Shown here: in pieces, positions 3,372 to 26,035 of the stretch
Position numbering within the stretch: position 1 is the first letter of the stretch
How the letters are laid out: each line of letters starts with the position of its first letter
DNA from: Minisyncoccota bacterium
GTDB lineage: Bacteria; Patescibacteriota; Minisyncoccia; Phycocordibacterales; Phycocordibacteraceae
Length of the DNA stretch: 64,000 nucleotides
Assembly: GCA_017991635.1 (NCBI GenBank)
Contig: JAGOQE010000002.1
Coordinates: 35,018-99,017 of the forward strand
Direction of reading: 5' to 3'
Position numbers and translations under genes: made by a program
Notes under the pieces: model-generated
Told to the model about the DNA's origin: nothing
What the model saw: only the letters and a program-made list of their open reading frames with translations
The model's database searches: none

Positions 3372-4138
3372 AATCACCCATATTCATAGGCTATGCAACG
3401 ATGGTACGAAAAGAGTTCGTACGTATTACTCGTATCTGGTCACAAACCTTGCTTCCTCCAGTCATTACGACATCACTGTACTTCCTTATCTTTGGTGGGT
3501 TCATAGGCTCTCAAGTTGCGCCGATTGCCGGGTACTCTTACATGCAGTTCATTATGCCGGGTCTTGTCATGATGACCTTGATAACGAGCGCCTACATGAA
3601 CACCGTCTCCACGTTCTACTTTTCAAAGTGGCAGAGAGTTATGGATGAGCTTCTCGTTTCGCCCATGCCTAACTGGACCATTATCGCCGGCTTTGTGACC
3701 GGTGGCCTTTTGCGTGCCTTCATGGTCGGTCTCCTTGTGGTTGGTGTGTCGATGTTCTTCACACATCTTTCTGTATTTAATATTTTTGCGCTCTTCTCGG
3801 CAGCATTTTTGACGGCGCTTCTCTTTGCGCTTGCCGGGATTATCAATGCTATCTATGCGAAGTCGTTTGACGCGATTTCAATAGTGCCGAACTTTGTGCT
3901 TACACCACTCACGTACCTTGGCGGCGTGTTCTATTCAGTGGAAGTGTTGCCACCGTTCTTCAGAGACATTTCGTATTTCAACCCAATTCTCTACATGGTG
4001 AATGCGTTTCGATATGGTTTCCTTGGTGTGTCTGACGTCTCAGTCGCTATGGCCTTTTCAATTATGGGAGGAATAGTCGTTTTACTTACTGTGTGGGTAC
4101 TTGTCTTGTTTAAACTTGGAGTTGGTATTCGCCGTTAG
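3368..4138 (+). CDS. ABC-2 family transporter permease
   Basis: 256 aa, six TM helices. Overlaps the stop of the upstream ABC ATPase by 4 nt. Confidence 0.8.
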   Translation: MKSPIFIGYATMVRKEFVRITRIWSQTLLPPVITTSLYFLIFGGFIGSQVAPIAGYSYMQFIMPGLVMMTLITSAYMNTVSTFYFSKWQRVMDELLVSPMPNWTIIAGFVTGGLLRAFMVGLLVVGVSMFFTHLSVFNIFALFSAAFLTALLFALAGIINAIYAKSFDAISIVPNFVLTPLTYLGGVFYSVEVLPPFFRDISYFNPILYMVNAFRYGFLGVSDVSVAMAFSIMGGIVVLLTVWVLVLFKLGVGIRR

Positions 4139-4938
4139 CGACGATTAAATTTTCGTTCGCGTCCAACCATACGTGCAAATTGAATCAGGACGATAAGGAG
4201 AATGAGTAGTGCTAGGTAAAACCAAAGTGGGGAAGAGGCAACAATCAAGAGAGCGCTCACCACGGCGTGAAGCAGTTTCTGTGCGCCTGACGCAATTTGG
4301 TCAACGAGATTCTCTTTTGCGGGAGCACCTTCTTGTGCTTGGTAATCTTCAGCTCCAAGAACTTCACCCTTAGGAGCGGTTGAACTAGCTAGAGAGGTTA
4401 GCGCGTCAACAACGCTTCCTCGAATATCTTCCGCAATATTTGATGTTGTGCTCGCTATGTCGGCAACAATAGGGGCGGTGTCGCCGAGTGTTCCTGCAAT
4501 CGTATCTACTGCAACTTGCGTGTCAGTCACGAGTTCTGATGGTGCTGGAGGGGGTAGCACTGAGACGGTCGTGGTACTTGTCTGCAGTGTGGTGAGTGGA
4601 ACCGAGCTTCCGGTAAGTCCTTCAATTTTCGCCGTGATGGAATGCTCGCCTTCGGTGGCTGCCCACGTTTGAGAAATAATTTCTGTGGTGCCAGGAGCAG
4701 CGCTCCACGGTTTGCTTCCGACTGGTTTCCCGTCCACCAAGAAAACGACTGTTCCTTGAAGGGACGATCCTGAACTGTTGTAAACAACAGTATAGATGGT
4801 CGCGCCGTCTCCTGTAATGAGGTTAGTCTTTGAAAGCCATACTGAACTTTGTGGAAAGCCTGCGGGGACGCTTTCGGCGTGGGCCTCGGGCGCTACTGCC
4901 ATAAGGAGAAGAAGAGGTATTATCCACAGACGTTTCAT
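4135..4938 (-). CDS. Secreted/cell-surface protein with signal peptide, Thr/Ser-rich region and C-terminal TM anchor
   Basis: Start set at internal MKRLWIIPLLLLMAVAPEAHA (signal peptide). Has a KGEVLGA motif before the C-terminal TM segment. Confidence 0.55.
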   Translation of the reverse strand: MKRLWIIPLLLLMAVAPEAHAESVPAGFPQSSVWLSKTNLITGDGATIYTVVYNSSGSSLQGTVVFLVDGKPVGSKPWSAAPGTTEIISQTWAATEGEHSITAKIEGLTGSSVPLTTLQTSTTTVSVLPPPAPSELVTDTQVAVDTIAGTLGDTAPIVADIASTTSNIAEDIRGSVVDALTSLASSTAPKGEVLGAEDYQAQEGAPAKENLVDQIASGAQKLLHAVVSALLIVASSPLWFYLALLILLIVLIQFARMVGRERKFNRR

Positions 4939-4989
4939 AAATAGGAGTATACGACAAAACAAGGAAGTATTCAGTGCTATCATACGGAC

Positions 4990-6573
4990 ATGTACCGGAT
5001 GTGGGCACTCGCTCTCCTCCTTGTGGCGCCGTCTAGTGCGTTTGCACTTTCTATTCCCCAGATAACTTCTATTGACGACGCCAGTGGCGCCGTTTTTTTT
5101 CAAACAAATTACATAAATAGCGCCAATGCAACATTCGGATTAAGTGCAAATGTGACGGCAGATGAAAGCTCAGTTATTACTATCATTGCAACAGATGGCA
5201 CGCTTTCAACTACGTTTGGTGGCACGGGTGCGTACACTGTTTCTTCACTTGGAACACTTTCTATAAATGCAGGAGACCTCTCATCACTTTCCGATGGTGA
5301 CGTGCAGGTAATAGCTCGTGCTTCTCGAAGCGGTGAGACTGTCGACTCACTCCCGGTTACGATGACGAAAGATACTGTGGTCACTGTTGCACTCTCATCG
5401 GGTATCGCTGAAGGGGGAGCAACTGGAGACACGACACCAACCTTTGCGTGGACTGCTGAAGATGGCGCAACGTTCACGTGTGCTGTTGATGGCGGAATTC
5501 CTGTTGTGTGCACCTCTCCATACACACTCCCTCTACTTTCCGACGGCGCTCACACGTTTACCGTAACGACAACAGACCTCGCTGGAAATACCCGCACATT
5601 GACGCGTTCGTTTACGGTTGACTCTCTCCTTGACGCTGTCGCGCCAACGCTTACGAGCGTCACTATGCAGTCAAACTTCACGACAACTAGTCGTGCTCGA
5701 ACAGGGGACAGAATAACGCTCAACATGCGAGCAGACGAAACTATAGCGACACCCGTGGTCACGATTCTCGGTCACTCAGTTACACCGTCAACCTTTAGTG
5801 ACCCGGCGTTTTACTTTGCAACGTATGATGTTGTCGCAGAGGATGCTGAAGGTGTGGTGACCTTTACTATCAGCGCTCAAGATACTTCAGGTAATGTTGC
5901 TGAAACCGTAAGCGCTACGACTGATAGTTCAGCAGTTCGTATTGATAGAACAGCTCCTGTACTTACCCTTACTGGAGATAATCCACTCACCCTAGATAGA
6001 GATGGTGTGTTTAGCGACCCTGGCGCAACAGCGCTCGATGAGAGCGATGGAACGCTCGTGGTGACTGAGTCAGGCGAAGTGAGTATGGGTGCGGCAGGCA
6101 CCTATACAAGAACGTATAGTGCGACTGACCTTTCAGGCAACCAAGGAACCATTACACGCACCGTTGAGGTTCTCGGGCCTGTGCAGTCAACAGGAGGTGG
6201 CGGTGGAGGTGGCAGTCATCCGAAAAGTGCTAAGCGAAAGGGTGAAGTGCTTGGCGCAACAACGTACCTGTTTACTCGAGAACTACAACGAGGAGACTCT
6301 GGTCAGGACGTCACTGAGCTTCAGAATGTTCTTATCGCGGGTGGATATTTAGAGAGTGAGCCAACAGGATTTTTTGGTCCACTTACAGAAACTGGAGTAA
6401 TGCTCTACCAGAGCGCGAACGGACTTCCTGCCGTGGGTCGTGTTGGACCTCAGACACTCGCGCTTTTGAATCAATCCTTAGGAATGAGTAAGGAAGCAGT
6501 GCTCGCACAGCTGTATGCTACATTGAACGAACTACTTATTGAGCTAGAAAAAGCAAAGAAAGCACAGTCTTAA
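4990..6573 (+). CDS. Secreted protein with tandem Ig-like repeats and C-terminal peptidoglycan-binding (PG_binding_1-like) domain
   Basis: Signal peptide MYRMWALALLLVAPSSAFA and Thr/Val-rich beta repeats. C-terminus: GDSGQDVTELQNVLIAGGYL...GFFGPLTETGVMLYQSANGLPAVGRVGPQTL. A KGEVLGA motif precedes that domain. Confidence 0.6.
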   Translation: MYRMWALALLLVAPSSAFALSIPQITSIDDASGAVFFQTNYINSANATFGLSANVTADESSVITIIATDGTLSTTFGGTGAYTVSSLGTLSINAGDLSSLSDGDVQVIARASRSGETVDSLPVTMTKDTVVTVALSSGIAEGGATGDTTPTFAWTAEDGATFTCAVDGGIPVVCTSPYTLPLLSDGAHTFTVTTTDLAGNTRTLTRSFTVDSLLDAVAPTLTSVTMQSNFTTTSRARTGDRITLNMRADETIATPVVTILGHSVTPSTFSDPAFYFATYDVVAEDAEGVVTFTISAQDTSGNVAETVSATTDSSAVRIDRTAPVLTLTGDNPLTLDRDGVFSDPGATALDESDGTLVVTESGEVSMGAAGTYTRTYSATDLSGNQGTITRTVEVLGPVQSTGGGGGGGSHPKSAKRKGEVLGATTYLFTRELQRGDSGQDVTELQNVLIAGGYLESEPTGFFGPLTETGVMLYQSANGLPAVGRVGPQTLALLNQSLGMSKEAVLAQLYATLNELLIELEKAKKAQS

Positions 6574-6577
6574 ATTC

Positions 6578-7495
6578 ATGCCTCGAAAATCTTTTTTCAA
6601 ACACGTACATAATGCCGTTGTTCCTTCAAGGGACAATGGTCACCATCCGCATCTCCTGAAGCGGGAAGTCGTTGTTGCTGTCCTTTCATTTGCGGTGCTT
6701 CTTGAAATGCTCGTCCTTACCGATGGCTTCTTGTTTCTTCGTCAGGCGGGGAACATGGCAAGCGTCCTTCCTGGAGTAGTTGCCTCTCTCACTAATCAAG
6801 AGCGAAGAGACAATCACCTGACCACGCTCACTCAGAATCCTTTACTTGCTGAAGCTGCAAGTCTAAAAGCCAAAGATATGGCTGAAAAGGGATACTTTTC
6901 ACACACAGGCCCTGATGGCGCGCTTCCGTGGAAGTGGCTTAAACAGGTTGGGTATACCTATGAATACGCGGGAGAGAATCTTGCTGTGAACTTTGTTGAT
7001 TCTGATGAAGTGGTTGATGCGTGGATGAACTCACCGACACATAAGGCAAACATCCTCAAACAGAACTTTACGGAAATTGGTGTGGGTATGGCGAAGGGAG
7101 AGTATAAGGGAGAGGAGACTATATTCGTTGTTCAGTTTTTTGGAAAGCCTTCAGCCGTTCCAACAAAGGGTGGTGCTTCTGAAGGAAACGGACTAGCGGT
7201 TTCTGCCGATACGCTAATGACGACTGGAGAGGTCTTGGGTATTTCAACAGAGAGCATTCCACTTGTTGACCACTTCATAGGAAGTCCTATGACCATGTCC
7301 AAGTATGTCTTCGTGGCGCTTGGTGTGCTTTTTGTACTGGTCTTCCTCATTGGAGTCTTTTTTGGAAGACGTCTACCTCGTCTTGCGGCGACTATCGGAG
7401 TTCTGCTTATTCTTGCGATGATGTTTGGTCTTGTAGCATTCAACAAATCAGCGTTTCTAGGAGACGTTGAAGTTATAGAGGAGCCAGCTCCATAA
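6578..7495 (+). CDS. CAP/SCP (PR-1-like, YkwD-type) domain membrane-anchored protein
   Basis: CAP-like core: YFSHTGPDGALPWKWL...YEYAGENLAVNF...WMNSPTHKANIL. C-terminal TM; TGEVLGI motif before the TM. Confidence 0.6.
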   Translation: MPRKSFFKHVHNAVVPSRDNGHHPHLLKREVVVAVLSFAVLLEMLVLTDGFLFLRQAGNMASVLPGVVASLTNQERRDNHLTTLTQNPLLAEAASLKAKDMAEKGYFSHTGPDGALPWKWLKQVGYTYEYAGENLAVNFVDSDEVVDAWMNSPTHKANILKQNFTEIGVGMAKGEYKGEETIFVVQFFGKPSAVPTKGGASEGNGLAVSADTLMTTGEVLGISTESIPLVDHFIGSPMTMSKYVFVALGVLFVLVFLIGVFFGRRLPRLAATIGVLLILAMMFGLVAFNKSAFLGDVEVIEEPAP

Positions 7496-7524: not shown

Positions 7525-8076
7525 ATGACGTACGATTTTTCTACCCTCAAAAAAGATATTACTGAAACAGATGAATGGCTCCAGCGTGAGCTCACTGGAG
7601 TACGTACTGGGCGCGCCACACCTGCTCTTATGGATACGGTTAAGCCTGAAGTGTATGGCTCTCGCACGCCTATGGCGCAGGTCGCCTCACTCTCTATTGA
7701 GGACGCCCGCACGCTTCGTGTGGTGCCGTGGGATAAATCTCTAGTGAAGGCAATTGAGAAGGCAATCACTGAAGCAGACCTCGGTGTTTCAGTTGCGACA
7801 GATGATATGGGTCTCCGCGTCATGTTTCCAGAATTGACTGCCGAGCGACGCGTCATGCTTGCGAAGATTGCAAACGAAAAAACTGAACATGCAAAGGTCA
7901 CACTGCGTGGTCATCGCAATGAAGCCATCAAAGCACTTGATGCAAGTGAGAAAGAAGGTGGCATGAGCAAGGACGAGCTGTTTAGGTATAAGGAAGAGGT
8001 GCAGAAGATGATTGATAAGGGTACTGAATCTCTTGAAGCGCAATTGAAGCGCAAGCAAGAGGAGATTTCTAAATAG
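7525..8076 (+). CDS. frr: Ribosome recycling factor
   Basis: 183 aa; characteristic RRF sequence throughout (VRTGRATPALMDTVKPEVYGSRTPM...). Confidence 0.9.
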   Translation: MTYDFSTLKKDITETDEWLQRELTGVRTGRATPALMDTVKPEVYGSRTPMAQVASLSIEDARTLRVVPWDKSLVKAIEKAITEADLGVSVATDDMGLRVMFPELTAERRVMLAKIANEKTEHAKVTLRGHRNEAIKALDASEKEGGMSKDELFRYKEEVQKMIDKGTESLEAQLKRKQEEISK

Positions 8077-8077
8077 C

Positions 8078-9181
8078 ATGAGCGTCCTCATCTTCATCAT
8101 CGTTCTTGTTGTGCTCATTGTCGTACATGAGCTCGGACACTTTGTAGTGGCAAAGCTCTCAGGTATGCGTGTGGATGAGTTTGGACTTGGCTATCCACCA
8201 AAAATTGTTGGAAAAAAGTACAAGGGAACAGAGTACAGTTTGAACTGGCTTCCGTTTGGAGGGTTCGTGAAAATTCACGGAGAGGATTTGGAGGAGGGAC
8301 GCGCAAAGACCTCAACAGGTGACGCGTTTACTGATAAACCTCGTCACATACAGGCACTAGTCTTGGTGGCAGGTATTGTAATGAACCTTCTTTTCGCGTG
8401 GCTGTTGATTTACGTCACGCTTGTCATGGGTGCACCTAAGGCACTCTCTTTGGAGGAAGCAAAAACCACTCCGAACGCTGTGCTTACCGTAACTCAGGTA
8501 CTCCCTGATTCTCCTGCGGATAAGGCCGGGCTTAAGGCTGGAGACGCTATTGTGAGTGCTGCTGGCCCACACGGAAACTTTAACGAAACTACTCCAGAAG
8601 CGTTCACTGCCTATGTAGGCGCTGATGTTGAAGGAACGCCCATCTCCTTTAGAGTCATGCGTTCGGGTGAAGAGCGTTTGTTCACTGCGTCCCCTGAGGC
8701 GGGTGTAGTAAAGGATGAACCAAATAGAAAAATTATCGGCGTCACGGTAGCAACCGTTGCAACCGTCTCCACGCCCCCTTTTGAAGCAATCGGTGAAAGC
8801 TTGATGACCACAGCAAACCTCACGGTACGTACTGGAGAAGGACTGCTCGCATTCTTTGGAAGTGTCTTCTCACTTTCTGCAGATCTTTCCCAAGTTTCAG
8901 GCCCGGTGGGTATTGCGGGTGTGGTAGGAGACGCTTCACAGAGCGGTCTTGCGTCTCTCCTTACTATCACGGCCCTCATCTCTATAAACCTTGCCCTCAT
9001 TAATATTCTTCCTATTCCAGCCTTGGATGGCGGAAGGCTCTTCTTTGTTCTCATTGAATCAGTAACGCGTAAGCCAATTTGGCCAAAACTCGCTGGTACC
9101 CTTAATGTTCTTGGATTTGGCTTCTTGGTCTTACTTATGGTTGCTATTACCGTAAGCGACATCTTTAAAATCGCTGCATAA
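8078..9181 (+). CDS. rseP: RseP-type site-2 zinc metalloprotease (M50) with PDZ domain
   Basis: HELGHF zinc motif, PDZ region, C-terminal LDGG motif (ALDGGRLFF). Confidence 0.85.
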   Translation: MSVLIFIIVLVVLIVVHELGHFVVAKLSGMRVDEFGLGYPPKIVGKKYKGTEYSLNWLPFGGFVKIHGEDLEEGRAKTSTGDAFTDKPRHIQALVLVAGIVMNLLFAWLLIYVTLVMGAPKALSLEEAKTTPNAVLTVTQVLPDSPADKAGLKAGDAIVSAAGPHGNFNETTPEAFTAYVGADVEGTPISFRVMRSGEERLFTASPEAGVVKDEPNRKIIGVTVATVATVSTPPFEAIGESLMTTANLTVRTGEGLLAFFGSVFSLSADLSQVSGPVGIAGVVGDASQSGLASLLTITALISINLALINILPIPALDGGRLFFVLIESVTRKPIWPKLAGTLNVLGFGFLVLLMVAITVSDIFKIAA

Positions 9182-9226
9182 TCATCCCTTTTGCAGGCTT
9201 TCATATTCCGCGTATACTTTAGGGAT

Positions 9227-10477
9227 ATGAGGCAATCAGCACTCTTCACCAAAACACGCAGAGATGCGCCTAGTGACGAAACAGCAAAGAACGCCGAACT
9301 CTTGATTCGTGCTGGATTTGTACGAAAGGAGATGGCTGGCGTGTATGCGTATTTGCCACTTGGCTACAAAACGCTACAAAACATCATTGCTGTTATCCGA
9401 GAAGAGATGAATGCCATTGGCGGAGAAGAGGTACTTTTGACATCCCTTCAGGATGCTCTGGTCTGGAAGAAGAGTGGCAGATGGAATGACGATGTCGTTG
9501 ATGTTTGGTTTAAGACTAAGCTCAAAAATGATACTGAACTTGGACTAGCTAATACGCACGAAGAAGCGCTCACGAACTTGATGCGTGATCATATTGCTTC
9601 ATACAAAGATTTACCTCGTGCGGTGTATCAATTCCAGACGAAGTTTAGAAATGAGCTCCGTGCAAAATCAGGCATCATGCGTAGTCGTGAATTTATTATG
9701 AAGGACTTGTATTCCTTCTCTAAGGACAAGGAAGAGCACGACGCATTCTACGAGCAGGCAAGTGATGCCTATACTCGAATCTTCGAGCGTATGGGAATCG
9801 GAGCAAAGACGTACAAAACCTTTGCGTCAGGTGGTTCTTTCAGTAAGTACTCTCATGAGTTTCAAACTGAGTGCGACGCGGGTGAGGACATTATCTATAT
9901 TGATGACGCACAGGGTATTGCCCTCAATAAAGAGGTGTATGACGACAACGAGCTCTTGGAGTCAAACAATATAGTGAAAGATTCACTTCGTGAGGCAAAG
10001 GCTATTGAGGTTGGAAATATCTTTACTCTCGGTACGAAATTTTCTGACGCGCTTGAGCTTTCGTACATGAACGAAGCAGGTGAAAGCGTCCCCGTCTTTA
10101 TGGGAAGCTATGGTATTGGTCCAGGGCGTGTGATGGGAACTATTGCGGAACTGCTCTCTGATGAGAAGGGACTTGTCTGGCCTGAATCGGTTGCTCCATT
10201 TATGTATCACCTGGTCTCAGTCATGCCTCATGACGATGGTGTGCGAGCCTTGGCCGACGATCTCTACAGCGAACTGACTCGTGCAGGAGCAAGTGTTTTG
10301 TATGACGACCGTGATATGCGTGCCGGAGAGAAGTTCGCTGAGAGCGACTTGCTTGGTATGCCGTGGCGCATCACCGTTGGAAAGGATGCACTTGCCGGAA
10401 ACGGATTTGAACTTACTAACCGCCAGACAGGAGAGATGATGCTTATTACCAAGGATGAATTAGTGAGACGTATATAG
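9227..10477 (+). CDS. proS: Prolyl-tRNA synthetase (short form without editing domain)
   Basis: Class II aaRS motifs: SGRWNDDVVDVW, THEEALTNL, FQTKFRNELRAKSGIMRSREFIMKD. Start set at internal MRQSALF. Confidence 0.8.
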   Translation: MRQSALFTKTRRDAPSDETAKNAELLIRAGFVRKEMAGVYAYLPLGYKTLQNIIAVIREEMNAIGGEEVLLTSLQDALVWKKSGRWNDDVVDVWFKTKLKNDTELGLANTHEEALTNLMRDHIASYKDLPRAVYQFQTKFRNELRAKSGIMRSREFIMKDLYSFSKDKEEHDAFYEQASDAYTRIFERMGIGAKTYKTFASGGSFSKYSHEFQTECDAGEDIIYIDDAQGIALNKEVYDDNELLESNNIVKDSLREAKAIEVGNIFTLGTKFSDALELSYMNEAGESVPVFMGSYGIGPGRVMGTIAELLSDEKGLVWPESVAPFMYHLVSVMPHDDGVRALADDLYSELTRAGASVLYDDRDMRAGEKFAESDLLGMPWRITVGKDALAGNGFELTNRQTGEMMLITKDELVRRI

Positions 10478-20457: not shown

Positions 20458-20529
20458 GGCCTCATCGTCTAACGGTTAGGACAGATCCCTCTCACGGATC
20501 AAATCGGGGTTCGATTCCCCGTGAGGTCA
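20458..20529 (+). tRNA. tRNA-Glu (anticodon CUC)
   Basis: Cloverleaf folded by hand: 7-bp acceptor stem (one G-U), 4-bp D stem with a GG-containing loop, anticodon stem gatcc/ggatc with loop c-t-CTC-a-c, 4-nt variable region, T arm cgggg-ttcgatt-ccccg, discriminator A, no encoded CCA. 72 nt. Confidence 0.8.
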
Positions 20530-20541
20530 CAAATCGGCCAA

Positions 20542-22981: not shown

Positions 22982-24004
22982 TTGCATGCTAAAATCCCCT
23001 CAATGCGCCCCCTACGTCTCCGCAAACTCCTCAAACGCAAACTCCCACTCCTCGTCTTCCTCATTCTCCTCGTTGTAGCTTTCTCTGTCGCATTTTATAT
23101 ATACCGAAACTCTCCCGTAGAGCCTCTAAGCCCCGAGGCATACAAAGAACTTGAGGCAAGGCTTGTAACACTTGTTGAGGACGAGGACCCGCGCGTCGCA
23201 CTCCATGCTCTACAAGAAGAAATTGATAGAAGTGAGAGTGTACTTCGCTCATGTCATGGCTTGGTACACGAAATAGGACATGAGGCATATGAGAAATACG
23301 GAGACGTGGCGAAGGCATTTTCATACCGAGACGAAATCTGCGGGGCAGGGTACATACACGGCGTGATTGAGTCCTATATGGATGATAAGGGGTTTGAGGA
23401 GAGTGAACTTTCTTCTATTTGCACTTCGTATAAAGGGGAAGATCGCGATAACTGCTTCCATGGTGTGGGGCATGGACTCATGTTCTATACGAGAAATGAT
23501 GTACCCGCGTCTATAACGTCATGTCATGCACTTACGGACGCGAAAGCACGTATGCGGTGTGCCGAGGGAGTCTTCATGGAGAACTTTGAGAGTGACGATG
23601 TCTTCCACCTCTCTGAGTATGTGGATGATAACGACCTCTTTGGAATTTGCAGGGAACAAAAAGAAATCTATCAAAAGGGTGCGTGTTACTTCTACGCACC
23701 ACTCTTTTATTTGAATGAACATGAGCGGGATTACGCCGACATGTTTGCATTGTGTAGGGAAGCTGAGGCTCCCTATATTTCTACCTGTATAAAAGGTACT
23801 TCAAGTAGGGTCACGAAGGAGAATATTGAACGCCCATCTCTAGTCTCTTCATACTGTATGAAGCAGAAAGGGTATGAGGGTGCGTGCGTTGAGGGAATAG
23901 GAAGTTACTACTATACGCACTACGGCGACACGAAAAAGGTAGAGGAACTCTGCAGTAAGGTTGCAAAGGATTATATGTCTGCCTGTACGAGCACGCTTAA
24001 GTAA
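22982..24004 (+). CDS. Hypothetical membrane-anchored Cys/His-rich repeat protein
   Basis: N-terminal TM followed by about seven spaced C-x-x-G/E-x-x-H/Y units: SCHGLVHEIGH, ICGAGYIHG, NCFHGVGHG, RCAEGVF, GACYFYAPL, TCIKGTS, GACVEGIGSYYY. Confidence 0.5.
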   Translation: MHAKIPSMRPLRLRKLLKRKLPLLVFLILLVVAFSVAFYIYRNSPVEPLSPEAYKELEARLVTLVEDEDPRVALHALQEEIDRSESVLRSCHGLVHEIGHEAYEKYGDVAKAFSYRDEICGAGYIHGVIESYMDDKGFEESELSSICTSYKGEDRDNCFHGVGHGLMFYTRNDVPASITSCHALTDAKARMRCAEGVFMENFESDDVFHLSEYVDDNDLFGICREQKEIYQKGACYFYAPLFYLNEHERDYADMFALCREAEAPYISTCIKGTSSRVTKENIERPSLVSSYCMKQKGYEGACVEGIGSYYYTHYGDTKKVEELCSKVAKDYMSACTSTLK

Positions 24005-24047
24005 AAACAGAAAAGCTCCACCAAAAGGCAAAGCCTTTCCGTAGAGC

Positions 24048-24365
24048 CTAGAAATTCCTGCGTTTTGTTCGTGTCAGTTCAGGCCAGATAGGCAGGCAGA
24101 GGACGACGATGAAAAGGAGAGCAAGGAAGGCAAGCACACTGCTTGTGGTCACGAAATAGTCACGCGGAGAGTGCTTCCAGCCAAGCCAGAAACACACACC
24201 ACAACACAAGGACCAGAAGAGGGAGTACGACCACGCGATGATTCGGTGCTGTGCCTTAGAGGCGCTCATGCGTAAGAGCGCGACTACCACAAAAACGAGA
24301 AAGAAGTTCAGTACAAACACTATAGTCCAAACGAGCACAGGAATGCTGATTCCAGCTTTTTCCAT
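24048..24365 (-). CDS. Hypothetical small polytopic membrane protein
   Basis: Start moved to the internal ATG (MEKAGISIP...), which has a GGAGGA SD 6 nt upstream. The longer GTG-started ORF in the track would overlap the divergent promoter. Confidence 0.5.
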   Translation of the reverse strand: MEKAGISIPVLVWTIVFVLNFFLVFVVVALLRMSASKAQHRIIAWSYSLFWSLCCGVCFWLGWKHSPRDYFVTTSSVLAFLALLFIVVLCLPIWPELTRTKRRNF

Positions 24366-24432
24366 AGCGTTTCCTCCAGTTTCTACCTCTACGCTATGAC
24401 CTAGAAGGCATAAAATCAAGCCCTCTAGGTAC

Positions 24433-24461
24433 TTGACTTTTGACACTATGTGTGATAATAT
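24433..24461 (+). promoter_or_regulatory. Sigma70-like promoter for the GC-rich gene: TTGACT ... TGtGATAAT (extended -10)
   Basis: TTGACT at 24433-24438. TGTGATAAT at 24451-24459 (alternatively read as TAATAT at 24456-24461 with a 17-nt spacer). Sits in an AT-rich 163-bp spacer 70 nt upstream of the 24529 ATG. Confidence 0.4.
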
Positions 24462-24528
24462 ATATGTACGTCAGGAAGGCTGACGAAGTACCTCAACATC
24501 AATCAGTTTACCTCTGGAGACGACCCAC

Positions 24529-25596
24529 ATGACCCAGTCCCAAGAAGCGCGTTTCGACTTCCCGGGTTTCAACCTGGTGAAGACGCAGGACAACGACCGC
24601 CACCAGGTGGAAGTCGGCACGATCGAGGACGGGGACCACGTGTTCACCGTCACCATGATCCGCAGCCAACAGCACCAGTTCCTCCCGTTCGCCATCTCGA
24701 CGGTGGCCGACAAGGACGGCAAAAAGATCTGGACCTTCCAGGGCGCCAAGCACGACGGTGTCGGCCTTCTGGCCTACGCCGGCGATGTGCCCGTCATCGC
24801 GCTCATCACGCGCGGCAAGGATCCCATCGTCGAGCGGGTCATTCCGCTCACTTCCCTGGTCAGCAACAAGCCCGTCGGGCTTCGTGAACTGATCAAGGGC
24901 AAGATGGGCGCCGCCATCGACCTCGACTGCCGCTACCGGCTGACCGAGGACGAGGGGAAGGTCGTCAAGATCGACGAAGGCCGGATGCACGCCGAGATGG
25001 TCCGCAAGGACCGCGAGGCGAGCGAGCGTCGGAACTCGGCCCGCGATGCGGAGAAAATCCGCAGGCAGGAAGAGGCCCGGGCACAAGAGGCGGAGCGCGA
25101 AAAGCGCGTCGCCCTGATCATGATCCGGGAAATCGTCACGGGCTACACCGCCCTGGGCGAACGGCGCTACGGCACTCCGGTCCTCGAGGCCGAGTGGCAG
25201 TCGCTTCCGAACGGCACCTTCGCCATTCTCGTCGACGCCATCGGCGAAGACGGGAAGGTCGGCAAACTGCTCGAAAGCTTCAAGATCGTGAAGCAGGCGG
25301 GCAGGCAACCGATGAAGGTGATGACCAGCCAGCTGGCCGCCAGGCAGGAAGGTCCGACGGAAATTCCGGAGGAGCTTCAGCCCACGGGCACGGTTCTGGT
25401 GGAGATCAAGGACGACTTCTTCAATGTCGGCCTCTACGCCTCCAAGGACCTGATCAACAGGGCCTGGAAGGCCGGTCTCAACGGCGGCGCCTATGTGGCC
25501 GTCGACGACCGTGACGCCGACGGCAAACTGGTCGTCTTCACCGTCACGAAGGAAACCGGCGCCAAGAAGGTCGGCTCCTTCATCCCCCTCGGCTAG
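24529..25596 (+). CDS. Hypothetical protein encoded by a strongly GC-rich (foreign-looking) ORF: two globular regions joined by a highly charged E/R-rich helix
   Basis: 355 aa; GGAG SD 9 nt upstream. The third codon position is almost always G or C (GAC, GGC, CTG, ATC, AAG, CGC...). Followed by a textbook intrinsic terminator. No family recognised. Confidence 0.6.
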   Translation: MTQSQEARFDFPGFNLVKTQDNDRHQVEVGTIEDGDHVFTVTMIRSQQHQFLPFAISTVADKDGKKIWTFQGAKHDGVGLLAYAGDVPVIALITRGKDPIVERVIPLTSLVSNKPVGLRELIKGKMGAAIDLDCRYRLTEDEGKVVKIDEGRMHAEMVRKDREASERRNSARDAEKIRRQEEARAQEAEREKRVALIMIREIVTGYTALGERRYGTPVLEAEWQSLPNGTFAILVDAIGEDGKVGKLLESFKIVKQAGRQPMKVMTSQLAARQEGPTEIPEELQPTGTVLVEIKDDFFNVGLYASKDLINRAWKAGLNGGAYVAVDDRDADGKLVVFTVTKETGAKKVGSFIPLG

Positions 25597-25645
25597 TCCG
25601 AGTACTGCACCTTAGGCCCCACCCAATTGGCCTTTCAAATGGGAA

Positions 25646-25678
25646 CCCCGTAGTCATGCGACTACGGGGTTTTGTTTT
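25646..25678 (+). terminator. Intrinsic terminator of the GC-rich gene
   Basis: Perfect 10-bp stem ccccgtagtc / gactacgggg with an atgc loop, followed by TTTTGTTTT. Confidence 0.7.
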
Positions 25679-25686
25679 ATACAGAG

Positions 25687-25717
25687 CGCCCCTGAAGACC
25701 TTCGGTCTTCAGGGGCG
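25687..25717. other. Second GC-rich hairpin (about 14-bp stem, 3-nt loop) between the convergent genes
   Basis: gcgcccctgaagacc-ttc-ggtcttcaggggcg. No clear T-tract on either strand. Confidence 0.4.
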
Positions 25718-25720
25718 TCT

Positions 25721-26035
25721 TCATTGCAGTGTCTTAAATTTTGTCGGATCAAGACCCGCAAGAACATTTATGGTGTGTTCACCAGGCACGGGCTCTGTGG
25801 GCACGTGAATCAATGCACACTCAGGAGAGAGACAGACGCCATCGCGTAGTTGCGTCAGGCACATAATGGCTCTCTCAAGCATCTCAGTAATGGCGAGAGT
25901 TGAAGCACTTTGAAGGAGGGACTTCTTTGTGCTTGTAATCACTCCGTCATAGATGACGGCACCGAAGCTTGACCCTTCAAATTCAAAGTCAAGAATCCAC
26001 GAGCCAGGTTGGTTCGGAAACAACAGGTCGTTCAT
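25721..26035 (-). CDS. Hypothetical protein (104 aa), downstream of truB on the same strand
   Basis: Host-like composition; no motif recognised. Confidence 0.45.
   Translation of the reverse strand: MNDLLFPNQPGSWILDFEFEGSSFGAVIYDGVITSTKKSLLQSASTLAITEMLERAIMCLTQLRDGVCLSPECALIHVPTEPVPGEHTINVLAGLDPTKFKTLQ

What the first reader, a model, noticed from the sequence alone, without database searches (positions are those of the whole stretch)
4135..7495. Three adjacent surface proteins share a GEVLG(A/I) motif just before their C-terminal anchoring segment
KGEVLGA occurs in the 4135..4938 protein before its C-terminal TM. RKGEVLGA occurs in the Ig-repeat protein before its peptidoglycan-binding domain. 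TGEVLGI occurs in the CAP-domain protein before its TM. A short conserved motif at the same relative position in three neighbouring exported proteins suggests a shared processing, sorting or attachment signal, analogous in role though not in sequence to LPXTG or PEP-CTERM.
Basis: seen in the sequence. Interest (0 to 1): 0.5.

Follow-up and report, generated by a model that had tools for sequence, protein, structure and literature searches.

The report
Conserved anchor-proximal motif in Paceibacteria surface proteins
Three neighbouring exported proteins of an uncultivated ultrasmall bacterium share an eight-residue tag (G-x-V-L-G-A-x-T) that recurs just outside the wall or membrane anchor of many unrelated surface proteins in this lineage, so it is probably an undescribed signal read by a common cell-envelope factor.

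Summary
GEVLG occurs three times in all six frames of the window, once in each of three adjacent genes (about 0.06 expected), and the codons differ.

The motif is not local. In 80 related Patescibacteria loci, VLG[AETVSI][ESTQDAK][TSAIV] occurs 105 times, against 12.7 in shuffles and 7 for the reversed pattern. The consensus is G-[EQS]-V-L-G-A-[ES]-T, with core [VI]-x-G. It is invariant or nearly so in orthologues of proteins 1 and 3, inside otherwise unconstrained linkers.

It ends a disordered linker in exported proteins and always lies next to the anchor:
- 9 residues before a PG_binding_1 core;
- 4-7 residues before LPXTG, in all 5 sortase signals found;
- 9-73 residues outside a transmembrane segment.

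No Pfam or NCBIfam model covers it, and literature searches found nothing.

A new result is a conserved gene pair. The gene just upstream of the membrane CAP gene carries the motif in 49 of 76 cases, against 31 of 1135 other genes, and those 49 fall into 38 unrelated families.

The function is inferred only. I favour a recognition site for a shared envelope factor, most likely a cleavage site (V-x-G|A) cut by the CAP protein, by analogy with PrgA/PrgB. Non-cleaved docking is nearly as likely.

The parts
4135..4938 (-). P1 gene, 267 aa: signal peptide, Ig-like/CARDB-like domain, helical region, motif, C-terminal hydrophobic anchor, basic tail
   Evidence: ORF. The ATG at 4938 is supported by a 100% identical 267-aa protein, P0121 (KBC16_01500, Candidatus Pacebacteria), and 18 homologues. 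Weak Big_3_5 match; the orthologue in L005 matches CARDB.
4876..4938 (-). P1 signal peptide (MKRLWIIPLLLLMAVAPEAHA)
   Evidence: Read from the sequence; aligned N-termini in A2.
4351..4371 (-). P1 motif KGEVLGA (aa 190-196)
   Evidence: G191, V193, L194 and G195 are invariant and A196 is at least 90% conserved over 19 homologues down to 33% identity. VLG is present in 73 of 129 full-length representatives, and many of the others carry related cores (ILG, VLS, VLA, V-x-G-F).
4138..4275 (-). P1 C-terminal hydrophobic anchor (aa 222-255) and basic tail RMVGRERKFNRR
   Evidence: Read from the sequence; conserved in A2.
4990..6573 (+). P2 gene, 527 aa: signal peptide, Big_13 and Bact_surface_Ig-like domains, Gly-rich/basic linker, motif, PG_binding_1, C-terminal helix
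   Evidence: Big_13 E 5.7e-9; Bact_surface_Ig-like E 6.3e-15; PG_binding_1 E 1.3e-13.
6193..6234 (+). P2 poly-Gly and basic linker (GGGGGGGSHPKSAK) just upstream of the motif
   Evidence: Read from the sequence. In the loci, 77 of 109 motif copies have at least 75% disorder-promoting residues upstream, against 6.4% background. AF2 pLDDT is below 50 here.
6235..6258 (+). P2 motif RKGEVLGA (aa 416-423)
   Evidence: AF2 places it in the low-confidence segment that ends exactly where the folded PG-binding domain begins. Spacing to the L..G..G.DV..LQ core is 9 aa in 19 of the 20 canonical PG_binding_1-type copies and 21 aa in the other.
6298..6468 (+). P2 PG_binding_1 domain (aa 437-493)
   Evidence: Pfam PF01471, E 1.3e-13. 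AF2 pLDDT 88-97.
6487..6567 (+). P2 C-terminal amphipathic helix, preceded by a degenerate motif copy QSLGMSK (nt 6472-6492)
   Evidence: AF2 helix at model residues 116-141. The same 'motif plus terminal helix' layout is seen in P0140, P0142, L027 and L044.
6578..7495 (+). P3 gene, 305 aa: cytoplasmic N-terminus, TM1, CAP/YkwD domain, linker with motif, TM2, TM3. It starts 4 nt after the P2 stop codon.
   Evidence: CAP E 2.7e-18; YkwD family E 1.9e-35; AF2; Foldseek to bacterial SCP/CAP structures.
6668..6739 (+). P3 TM1 (aa 31-54)
   Evidence: AF2 helix 29-55; read from the sequence.
6788..7138 (+). P3 CAP domain (aa 71-187). H109, E133, S152 and H155 are invariant.
   Evidence: (pLDDT above 90).
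7223..7243 (+). P3 motif TGEVLGI (aa 216-222)
   Evidence: A non-membrane VLG lies at this position in about 80 of 120 homologues down to about 37% identity. Variants there read ILG, VAG, VFG, VMG, VQG, VKG and VRG. AF2 pLDDT is below 50, with no docking on the CAP domain.
7304..7441 (+). P3 TM2 (aa 243-263) and TM3 (aa 269-288), preceded by the invariant S236-P237

Best explanation
GEVLG[AI] is the local form of a lineage-wide short linear motif of Paceibacteria/Parcubacteria (Patescibacteria). The consensus is G-[EQS]-V-L-G-A-[ES]-T and the core is [VI]-x-G.

Shown here: the motif marks the end of the disordered stalk of exported proteins, immediately outside whatever module holds the protein to the envelope. 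That module can be a PG_binding_1 domain, an LPXTG sortase signal, or C-terminal TM segments. The motif is maintained by selection independently of both the passenger and the anchor type.

Also shown here: motif-bearing, hypervariable surface proteins are encoded directly next to a conserved membrane-tethered CAP (YkwD-like) protein that carries the motif in its own stalk. In the window, this pair is P2 followed by P3.

Inferred: the motif is read in trans by one shared envelope factor. Its side chains at alternate positions (V and G) would bind in an extended conformation.

Inferred, and my preferred outcome: recognition leads to site-specific endoproteolysis at V-x-G|A. This would mature or shed the ectodomain from its anchor. 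The co-encoded CAP protein is the leading candidate for the enzyme or adaptor, by analogy with enterococcal PrgA, a surface CAP protein reported to be needed for processing of PrgB, another adhesin of the same plasmid.
For: Reality and generality of the motif:
- 3 GEVLG in the window, against 0.06 expected.
- The codons differ among the three copies.
- 105 six-residue matches in 399k aa of 80 related loci, against 12.7 in shuffles and 7 for the reversed pattern. For the eight-residue form, 52 against 1.
- It also occurs away from the CAP locus: 6 matches against 0.76 expected.

Selection:
- G, V, L and G are invariant in the P1 family.
- VLG is kept in about two thirds of P3 homologues, inside a linker that is otherwise unalignable.
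- P3-family variants keep V and G but vary the middle residue. P1-family variants are broader and sometimes replace G (VLA, VLS).

Exposure:
- AF2 pLDDT is below 50 at the motif in P3 and in P2. In P2 the folded PG-binding domain starts right after it.
- 77 of 109 copies follow a disorder-type linker, against 6.4% background.

Position next to the anchor:
- 9-aa spacing to the PG_binding_1 core in 19 of 20 canonical copies.
- 9-73 aa before a TM segment.
- 4-7 aa before LPXTG in all 5 sortase signals found (chance about 2e-12).

Exported proteins only: 85 of 102 have an N-terminal hydrophobic segment, against 41% baseline. Two carriers have choice-of-anchor J or C domains.

Link to the CAP gene:
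- The upstream neighbour carries the motif in 49 of 76 cases, against 31 of 1135 other genes (odds ratio 65, p 3e-46). The 49 fall into 38 BLAST families.
- Variant cassettes insert a sortase between the LPXTG-type motif protein and the CAP gene.

Hints for cleavage:
- V at -3 and G at -1, with a free -2 position and G at -5, is the geometry of signal-peptidase-type sites.
- In N-terminal PG_binding_1 proteins (P0143, P0144) the inferred signal-peptide cleavage site (...ANA) aligns near VLG-A.
- The P3 model matches the PrgA CAP domain.
- The PrgA paper reports that PrgA is needed for processing of PrgB at an unstructured region just after the adhesion domain (bioRxiv 10.1101/2020.06.18.156562).
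Against: - No cleavage, binding or attachment was observed. The outcome of recognition rests entirely on inference.
- Proteins with no passenger domain still keep the motif. Examples are SP-Gly-rich-motif-PG_binding_1 (P0140, P0142, L026, L043) and SP-(GGS)n-motif-motif-LPXTG (L033, L071). Release of an ectodomain cannot be the purpose there, which favours a function intrinsic to the anchor region.
- Cleavage 5-8 residues from an LPXTG would undo sortase anchoring.
- About 10% of carriers have two copies, which is more typical of binding avidity.
- AF2 does not dock P3's own motif into its CAP cavity.
- The residue equivalent to PrgA's proposed nucleophile (the one before the second His) is not conserved in the P3 family (T/A/S/E/M). 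The protease activity of CAP domains is itself debated.
- Variant cores in the CAP stalk (VMG, VAG, VQG) are not mirrored in the neighbour's motif, so there is no signature of co-evolution.
- The loci were collected through the CAP gene. The linkage statistic uses within-locus controls only, not whole genomes.
Confidence: 0.35

Rival explanations
1. The motif is a non-cleaved docking or assembly motif. It would be a wall-level peptide 'handle' that binds a partner by beta-strand addition. The partner could be the CAP domain, peptidoglycan or another wall polymer, an S-layer, or other motif copies. This would organise membrane-anchored (P1, P3) and wall-anchored (P2) proteins into one surface complex, as WxL-cluster proteins are organised in Firmicutes.
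For: - In every anchor class the motif ends up at about the level of the wall.
- Passenger-less carriers and double copies exist.
- All three neighbouring proteins of the window carry it, and synteny is conserved.
- The alternate-residue core fits strand pairing.
- The WxL precedent is a cluster of a large variable protein plus membrane-anchored partners that bind it (PMC10599100, abstract seen).
- DalA, the NCBIfam family that P3 hits below its cut-off, binds peptidoglycan.
Against: - AF2 gives no ordered contact of the motif with either the CAP or the PG_binding_1 domain.
- No partner has been identified.
- Eight-residue conservation with small residues at G and A also fits an enzyme site.
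Confidence: 0.3
2. The motif is a covalent attachment signal. A sortase-, exosortase- or GPI-transamidase-like enzyme would cleave at the small residues (G|A) and transfer the ectodomain to a wall or lipid acceptor, and the downstream PG_binding_1, TM or LPXTG module would act only as a retention signal that is later discarded.
For: - The logic parallels LPXTG, PEP-CTERM, the T9SS C-terminal domain and GPI omega-sites: small residues, a spacer, then a retention element.
- Carriers with choice-of-anchor domains exist.
- The motif lies 75-130 aa from the C-terminus.
- Sortase genes are embedded in some CAP cassettes.
Against: - The motif co-occurs with a complete LPXTG signal a few residues downstream in 5 of 5 cases. 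That would make one of the two signals redundant.
- Discarding a folded PG-binding domain is uneconomical.
- In P3 the protein stays membrane-anchored by TM1 regardless.
- No dedicated transpeptidase is linked in the window or in most loci.
Confidence: 0.1
3. The motif is a sequon for a lineage-specific post-translational modification such as O-glycosylation of the Thr at +5. This would stiffen or protect the stalk near the wall.
For: - Thr is at +5 in 56% and Ser/Thr at +4 in 36% of copies.
- The motif sits in Ser/Thr/Pro/Gly-rich linkers typical of glycosylated stalks.
- General O-glycosylation motifs exist in other phyla (own knowledge: the Bacteroidetes D-[ST]-[AILVMT] motif).
Against: - The conserved positions are G, V, L and G, not the hydroxyl residues.
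- There are only one or two copies per protein, at a fixed position, whereas sequons are usually scattered.
- P1 has AED after VLG, with no Ser or Thr.
Confidence: 0.07
4. There is no independent function. On this view the motif is the N-terminal edge of a mobile PG_binding_1 cassette spread by domain shuffling, and its presence in P1 and P3 is a relic or chance.
For: - 19 of the 20 canonical PG_binding_1-type copies have a 9-aa spacing to the domain core, so in that class the motif behaves like part of the module.
- The passengers upstream of it are swapped freely: 38 families.
Against: - The motif is invariant in the P1 family and highly conserved in the P3 family. Neither has a PG-binding domain, and both keep it inside linkers that otherwise drift freely.
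- It is also coupled to LPXTG signals.
- The codons differ.
- AF2 places it outside the folded domain.
- The chance expectation is 0.06.
Confidence: 0.05

Closest known systems
LPXTG sortase sorting signal (Gram-positive cell-wall anchoring)
   Same: A short conserved peptide near the C-terminus of exported surface proteins, read by a shared envelope factor and independent of the passenger domain.
   Different: The sequence differs and the motif is not followed directly by a TM segment and basic tail. In these genomes it lies 4-7 residues upstream of genuine LPXTG signals (5 of 5). It also precedes PG_binding_1 domains and distant TM segments, so it is an accompanying element and not a sortase motif.
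Enterococcal PrgA (surface CAP-domain protein) and the adhesin PrgB of plasmid pCF10
   Same: A cell-surface CAP-fold protein is paired with a large adhesin. PrgB is reported to be processed in an unstructured region just after the adhesion domain. P3's CAP model matches PrgA's CAP domain by Foldseek (6z9l_A E 5.9e-4, 6z9k_B E 1.6e-3).
   Different: PrgA is LPXTG-anchored on a 40 nm coiled coil, whereas P3 is held by three TM segments. The PrgB site (IFNYGNPKEP) is unrelated in sequence. PrgA's proposed Ser nucleophile is not conserved in the P3 family. No processing has been shown here.
Type I signal peptidase cleavage sites (the -3,-1 rule)
   Same: An aliphatic or small residue at -3 (V/I), a small residue at -1 (G), a tolerant -2 position and a helix breaker at -5 (G). 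The position relative to the start of PG_binding_1 matches the inferred signal-peptide cleavage point in N-terminal PG_binding_1 proteins.
   Different: There is no preceding hydrophobic h-region. Gly is preferred over Ala at -1, while the organism's own signal peptides end in AHA or AFA. The site lies hundreds of residues into the mature protein.
WxL surface-protein gene clusters of Firmicutes
   Same: A cluster combining a large variable surface protein that has a conserved C-terminal wall-binding module, small proteins that consist of the module only, and conserved membrane-anchored partner proteins (PMC10599100, abstract seen).
   Different: The domains differ (WxL, DUF916 and DUF3324, against PG_binding_1, CARDB-like and CAP). 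The shared element here is an 8-residue linear motif and not a folded domain.
PEP-CTERM/exosortase, PGF-CTERM/archaeosortase and GlyGly-CTERM/rhombosortase signals
   Same: Lineage-restricted short motifs shared by many otherwise unrelated exported proteins. Some carriers are 'choice-of-anchor' proteins.
   Different: Those motifs abut a C-terminal TM helix and co-occur with a dedicated polytopic enzyme. This motif is separated from the TM segment by 9-73 residues or is followed by a soluble domain, and no such enzyme was found nearby.

Membership tests
LPXTG sortase signal | LPXTG pentapeptide near the C-terminus | tested here: not met
   P1, P2 and P3 contain no LPXTG-like peptide in their C-terminal regions.
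LPXTG sortase signal | Hydrophobic segment plus basic tail immediately after the motif | tested here: not met
   P1 has a TM segment and an RERKFNRR tail, but they start 25 aa after the motif. P2 has a soluble PG_binding_1 domain instead. P3 has two TM segments that start 20 aa later.
LPXTG sortase signal | Cognate sortase gene | tested here: not met
   No sortase-like ORF was found in the 64 kb window. Sortases occur only in 4 variant cassettes whose substrates have a true LPXTG signal. The rest of the genome was not visible.
PEP-CTERM / GlyGly-CTERM / PGF-CTERM type signals | Signature motif directly abutting a C-terminal TM helix, plus an exosortase, rhombosortase or archaeosortase gene | tested here: not met
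   The motif-to-TM distance is 9-73 aa. No NCBIfam sorting-signal model hits any carrier. No such enzyme was seen in the window or the loci.
PG_binding_1 (PF01471), for P2 | Match to the Pfam model above its gathering score | tested here: met
   51.4 bits against a cut-off of 23, at aa 437-493. The motif (aa 416-423) lies outside the model and outside the AF2-ordered domain.
CAP / SCP / YkwD superfamily (PF00188), for P3 | Match to the Pfam model, the alpha-beta-alpha sandwich fold, and conserved His/Glu cavity residues | tested here: met
   67.3 bits against a cut-off of 21.1. AF2 pLDDT is above 90, and the Foldseek top hits are 4ifa and 4d53. H109, E133 and H155 are invariant. The YkwD and DalA NCBIfam models are hit below their cut-offs, so P3 is not filed as either equivalog.
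PrgA-like CAP protease with adhesin substrate | Serine nucleophile adjacent to the second cavity His (S476-H477 in PrgA) | tested here: inconclusive
   The residue before H155 is T in P3 and T/A/S/E/M across the family. S152, three residues upstream, is invariant.
PrgA-like CAP protease with adhesin substrate | CAP-dependent processing of the adhesin at an unstructured site | not testable with these tools
   Only the genetic linkage and the disorder of the site could be shown.
Type I signal peptidase site | Small or aliphatic residues at -3 and -1 | tested here: met
   The core is [VI]-x-G, and in the P3 family the middle residue varies while V and G are kept.
Type I signal peptidase site | Preceding n- and h-regions (a membrane-spanning signal peptide) | tested here: not met
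   The upstream 28 aa are Gly/Ser/Thr/Pro-rich and non-hydrophobic in 77 of 109 copies.

The most novel reading that the evidence does not exclude
Paceibacteria may possess a previously unrecognised surface-protein maturation or display system. In it, an anchor-independent tag (G-x-V-L-G-A-x-T) on every major surface protein would be read by a dedicated membrane-tethered CAP-domain protein acting as protease or receptor. That CAP protein is encoded directly downstream of a hypervariable adhesin gene. If correct, this would give the bacterial CAP/YkwD family its first defined peptide substrate. It would also provide a one-line sequence rule for finding the host-contact proteins of these uncultivated episymbionts.
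Probability: 0.25. Interest if true: 0.8.

Novelty: new variant of a known kind. Interest (0 to 1): 0.6.

Why it matters
Patescibacteria make up a large share of bacterial diversity. Most are thought to live attached to other microbes, yet almost nothing is known about how they build or display their surface proteins.

An eight-residue tag sits next to the anchor regardless of anchor type (PG-binding domain, sortase signal or TM). It can therefore serve three purposes:
1. It is a practical marker for cataloguing the surface proteome and the hypervariable, probably host-binding, proteins in thousands of genomes assembled from metagenomes.
2. It points to a shared envelope factor that could be identified by phyletic profiling.
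3. Together with the conserved pair of a variable motif protein and a membrane CAP protein, it offers a concrete, testable hypothesis for the function of bacterial CAP/YkwD proteins, which is still unknown.

It also shows that sortase signals in this lineage have a conserved upstream extension.

Tried and rejected
1. Recent duplication or recombination as the source of the three copies. Rejected, because the codons differ.

2. Docking of the motif onto its own CAP domain or onto PG_binding_1. The AF2 models of P3 (32-sequence alignment) and of the P2 C-terminus (6 sequences, shallow) both leave the motif at pLDDT below 50.

3. RseP (8078..9181, two genes downstream of P3) as the cognate protease. 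Rejected, because this is the housekeeping frr-rseP-proS order and it is conserved only in the closest locus, L001.

4. Signal peptidase I, rhomboid, S8 protease or L,D-transpeptidase genes as linked enzymes. Signature searches found only scattered housekeeping copies.

5. A concerted-evolution test. Variant cores in the CAP stalk (VMG, VAG, VQG, VRG, VLA) are not matched by the neighbour's motif, which stays VLG. The test is uninformative for a CAP-motif pairing.

6. A word-indexed protein search with the P2 C-terminal 132 aa returned only 5 hits, so there was no deep alignment for that region.

7. A tblastn search of an LPXTG-type motif tail against plasmids found nothing relevant. My recollection of 'VLGxRR' repeats upstream of sorting signals in some Firmicutes surface proteins could not be verified, and it is not used as evidence.

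8. Literature searches for the motif or for a Patescibacteria sorting signal found nothing.

9. Autoproteolysis of the CwpV or SEA type (own knowledge). Rejected, because the residue after Gly is mostly Ala or Glu and is not a nucleophile.

10. The VEVLGP at P2 aa 392-397 as a fourth copy. Rejected, because it is the last strand of the Ig-like domain and lacks G at -2 and A at +1.

Full report
**Observation.** The region holds three genes.
- P1: 4135..4938 (-), 267 aa.
- P2: 4990..6573 (+), 527 aa.
- P3: 6578..7495 (+), 305 aa.

KGEVLGA, RKGEVLGA and TGEVLGI are at nt 4351-4371, 6235-6258 and 7223-7243. GEVLG occurs nowhere else in any of the six frames of the 64 kb window. The window's composition predicts 0.06 occurrences in ORFs. 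The three copies use different synonymous codons, so the identity is maintained at the protein level.

A protein 100% identical to P1 is annotated as KBC16_01500 of a Candidatus Pacebacteria genome assembled from a metagenome. The window is therefore from a Patescibacteria (CPR) genome.

**Anatomy of the three proteins.**
- P1 has a signal peptide and an Ig-like domain (weak Big_3_5 match; its orthologue in L005 matches CARDB). A helical region follows, then the motif, then a long hydrophobic C-terminus with a basic tail 25 aa further on.
- P2 has a signal peptide, Big_13 and Bact_surface_Ig-like domains, a poly-Gly and basic linker, the motif, PG_binding_1 (aa 437-493) and a terminal helix.
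- P3 has no cleavable signal peptide. It has a conserved cytoplasmic N-terminus, TM1, a CAP/YkwD domain, a linker with the motif, and two more TM segments.
- P3 starts 4 nt after the P2 stop codon. P1 is divergent from P2, with 51 nt between the two start codons.

**The motif is conserved in orthologues.**
- Among 120 P3 homologues (down to about 37% identity), about 80 have a non-membrane VLG at the same place. It sits in a linker that is otherwise unalignable in length and sequence. In a 32-sequence alignment chosen from those, V219, L220 and G221 are the only invariant linker residues apart from S236-P237 before TM2.
- Homologues without VLG read ILG, VAG, VFG, VMG, VQG, VKG or VRG.
- In 19 P1 homologues down to 33% identity, G191, V193, L194 and G195 are invariant.
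- A profile search of 1.84 billion representatives found 1845 relatives at E up to 0.001. Of the 129 full-length-like proteins among the best 150, 73 have G-x-VLG-[AT]-[SE]-T. Many of the others have ILG, VLS, VLA or a V-x-G-F-x-A-P variant, and some have no recognisable copy.
- The core across both families is therefore [VI]-x-G followed by a small or acidic residue.

**The motif is lineage-wide and not tied to these three families.** I fetched 80 loci (1.25 Mb) around P3 relatives from Patescibacteria genomes, including Nomurabacteria, Zambryskibacteria, Colwellbacteria, Giovannonibacteria and Lloydbacteria.
- In 1293 crude ORFs, VLG[AETVSI][ESTQDAK][TSAIV] occurs 105 times. Residue shuffles give 12.7 (maximum 17), and the reversed pattern gives 7. 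The eight-residue form occurs 52 times against 1.
- The logo is G(68%)-[E/Q/S]-V-L-G-A(53%)-[E/S]-T(56%), preceded by Ser/Gly/Thr/Pro/Ala-rich sequence.
- 85 of 102 carriers have an N-terminal hydrophobic segment, against 41% of all ORFs.
- 77 of 109 copies follow a stretch with at least 75% disorder-promoting residues, against 6.4% at random positions.
- Passenger domains are all different: SpaA-like, Big_9, cadherin-like, CBM_4_9, choice-of-anchor J and C, and CARDB.
- No Pfam or NCBIfam model covers the motif.

**Position relative to anchors.** The motif lies 75-130 residues from the C-terminus and always just outside the anchoring element.
- Canonical PG_binding_1: the spacing to the L..G..G.DV..LQ core is 9 residues in 19 of 20 copies.
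- A Cys-containing PG_binding_1 variant begins about 20 residues after the motif.
- C-terminal TM segments begin 9-73 residues later.
- All five genuine LPXTG signals in the loci have [VI][LA]GA 4-7 residues upstream (GQVLGAEFIPT-LPVTG, SAVLGAEFAPS-LPITG, GLVAGAFTDLPG-LPNTG, SEVAGAFTELPG-LPDTG, DEILGASIT-LPETG). The chance of this is about 2e-12.

In each class the motif would end up at roughly the level of the wall; this is my inference. About 10% of carriers have two copies. Some carriers have no passenger domain at all. These are SP-Gly-rich-motif-PG_binding_1(-motif)-helix and SP-(GGS)n-motif-motif-LPXTG.

**Structure.** AF2 models the CAP domain of P3 at pLDDT above 90 but leaves residues 196-226, which include the motif, below 50 (bar two residues) and undocked. 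In the P2 C-terminal model, the motif (model residues 33-38) is in the low-confidence segment, and the ordered PG-binding domain starts right after it (shallow alignment). The motif therefore behaves as an exposed linear motif and not as part of a fold.

**A conserved gene pair.** The gene immediately upstream of the P3-type CAP gene carries the motif in 49 of 76 cases, against 31 of 1135 other genes in the same loci (odds ratio 65, p 3e-46). Those 49 proteins fall into 38 BLAST families of 130-1776 aa.
- The unit is therefore a hypervariable exported protein (with motif and wall anchor) followed by a TM-CAP-motif-TM-TM protein.
- P1-type genes accompany the pair in about 14 loci.
- In four loci the variable protein is LPXTG-type and a sortase gene sits immediately upstream of the CAP gene. 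In two of these a small secreted CAP paralogue is also present.
- In L077 an LPXTG-type carrier lies directly downstream of the CAP gene.

**Mechanism.** What is shown is a selected, exposed, anchor-proximal motif in exported proteins that is genetically linked to a membrane CAP protein. What is inferred is a common trans-acting reader.

The alternate-position core (V and G kept, the middle residue free in the P3 family), with G at -5 and A at +1, resembles a -3/-1 protease site. MAFFT aligns the inferred signal-peptide cleavage site (...ANA) of N-terminal PG_binding_1 proteins near VLG-A.

Foldseek relates the P3 model to bacterial SCP proteins and to the CAP domain of enterococcal PrgA. The PrgA study proposes that domain to be a serine protease and reports that PrgA is needed for processing of the adhesin PrgB at an unstructured region just after its adhesion domain.

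On this basis I favour site-specific processing at V-x-G|A by, or with, the CAP protein (confidence 0.35). The observations against it are:
- passenger-less carriers;
- double copies;
- the site lying only a few residues from LPXTG;
- the non-conserved PrgA-type Ser position;
- the lack of mirrored variants between the CAP stalk and the neighbour's motif.

These keep a non-cleaved docking or assembly role almost as likely (0.3). Covalent transfer (0.1), a modification sequon (0.07) and a functionless cassette edge (0.05) are less likely.

**Comparison with known systems.** The motif is not an LPXTG, PEP-CTERM or GlyGly-CTERM signal. The defining features of those signals were tested and not met, and the motif coexists with LPXTG. 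By logic, the closest systems are sorting and processing motifs of surface proteins, the PrgA/PrgB pair, and WxL clusters.

Seven literature searches, five of them aimed at the motif or at surface-protein sorting in this lineage, found no description of it. I rate it a new variant of a known kind (an anchor-region signal of surface proteins). There is a 0.25 chance that it marks a new CAP-dependent display or maturation system.

**Limits.**
- The loci were collected through the CAP gene, so genome-wide frequencies are extrapolated. Away from the CAP locus there are 6 strict copies per 278k aa, against 0.76 expected.
- ORFs were called crudely.
- Taxonomic breadth beyond Paceibacteria-type genomes was not tested.
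- No experiment bears on cleavage or binding.

Noticed in passing
window 6620-6667 (P3 aa 15-30): The cytoplasmic N-terminus of the membrane CAP family carries its own conserved motif, roughly P-x3-N-x-H-x-P-H-x-L-R. N20 and P24 are at least 90% conserved in a 32-sequence alignment. No function is known.
   Followed up: no
window 7283-7288 (P3 S236-P237): An invariant Ser-Pro lies a few residues before TM2 in the CAP family. Apart from VLG, it is the only conserved element of the linker.
   Followed up: no
window 6472-6567 (P2 aa 495-526): After its PG-binding domain, P2 has a degenerate second motif copy (QSLGMSK) and a predicted amphipathic C-terminal helix. The same 'motif plus terminal helix' tail occurs in P0140, P0142, L027 and L044, and in a small secreted CAP paralogue (L066:8782-9369). 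It may be a second shared module, for example a coiled-coil docking helix.
   Followed up: partly
L062:3756-11095, L066:4605-11038, L070:1-1595, L072:1397-8668: These are variant cassettes. In L062, L066 and L072 a very large LPXTG-type surface protein is followed by a sortase (..LITCSG or ..LITCDG) and then the membrane CAP gene. L066 and L072 also have a small secreted CAP paralogue between the large protein and the sortase. L070 shows only the sortase and the CAP gene, because the contig ends there.
   Followed up: partly
L033:5944-6498(-), L071:3087-3602(-): These are small wall proteins made only of a signal peptide, a long (GGS)n-type low-complexity run, two motif copies and an LPXTG signal. 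The motif is their only non-repetitive feature.
   Followed up: partly
window 7525-10477: frr, rseP (an M50 site-2 protease with HELGH) and proS follow P3 in the usual housekeeping order. This adjacency is conserved only in the closest locus (L001), so it is not linked to the motif.
   Followed up: yes
window 24001-26000: A compositional outlier: GC 0.57 and AT skew +0.16, against about 0.48 GC elsewhere. It overlaps ORFs at 24048-24446(-), 24529-25596(+) and 25721-26035(-). There is no Rfam hit.
   Followed up: no
window 4939-4989: Only 51 nt separate the divergent start codons of P1 and P2, so their promoters must overlap. An upstream in-frame TTG at 5103 would extend P1 to 322 aa, but homologues do not support it.
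   Followed up: partly
window 20458-20530: A single tRNA-Glu (CTC) is the only RNA gene detected in the 64 kb window.
   Followed up: yes
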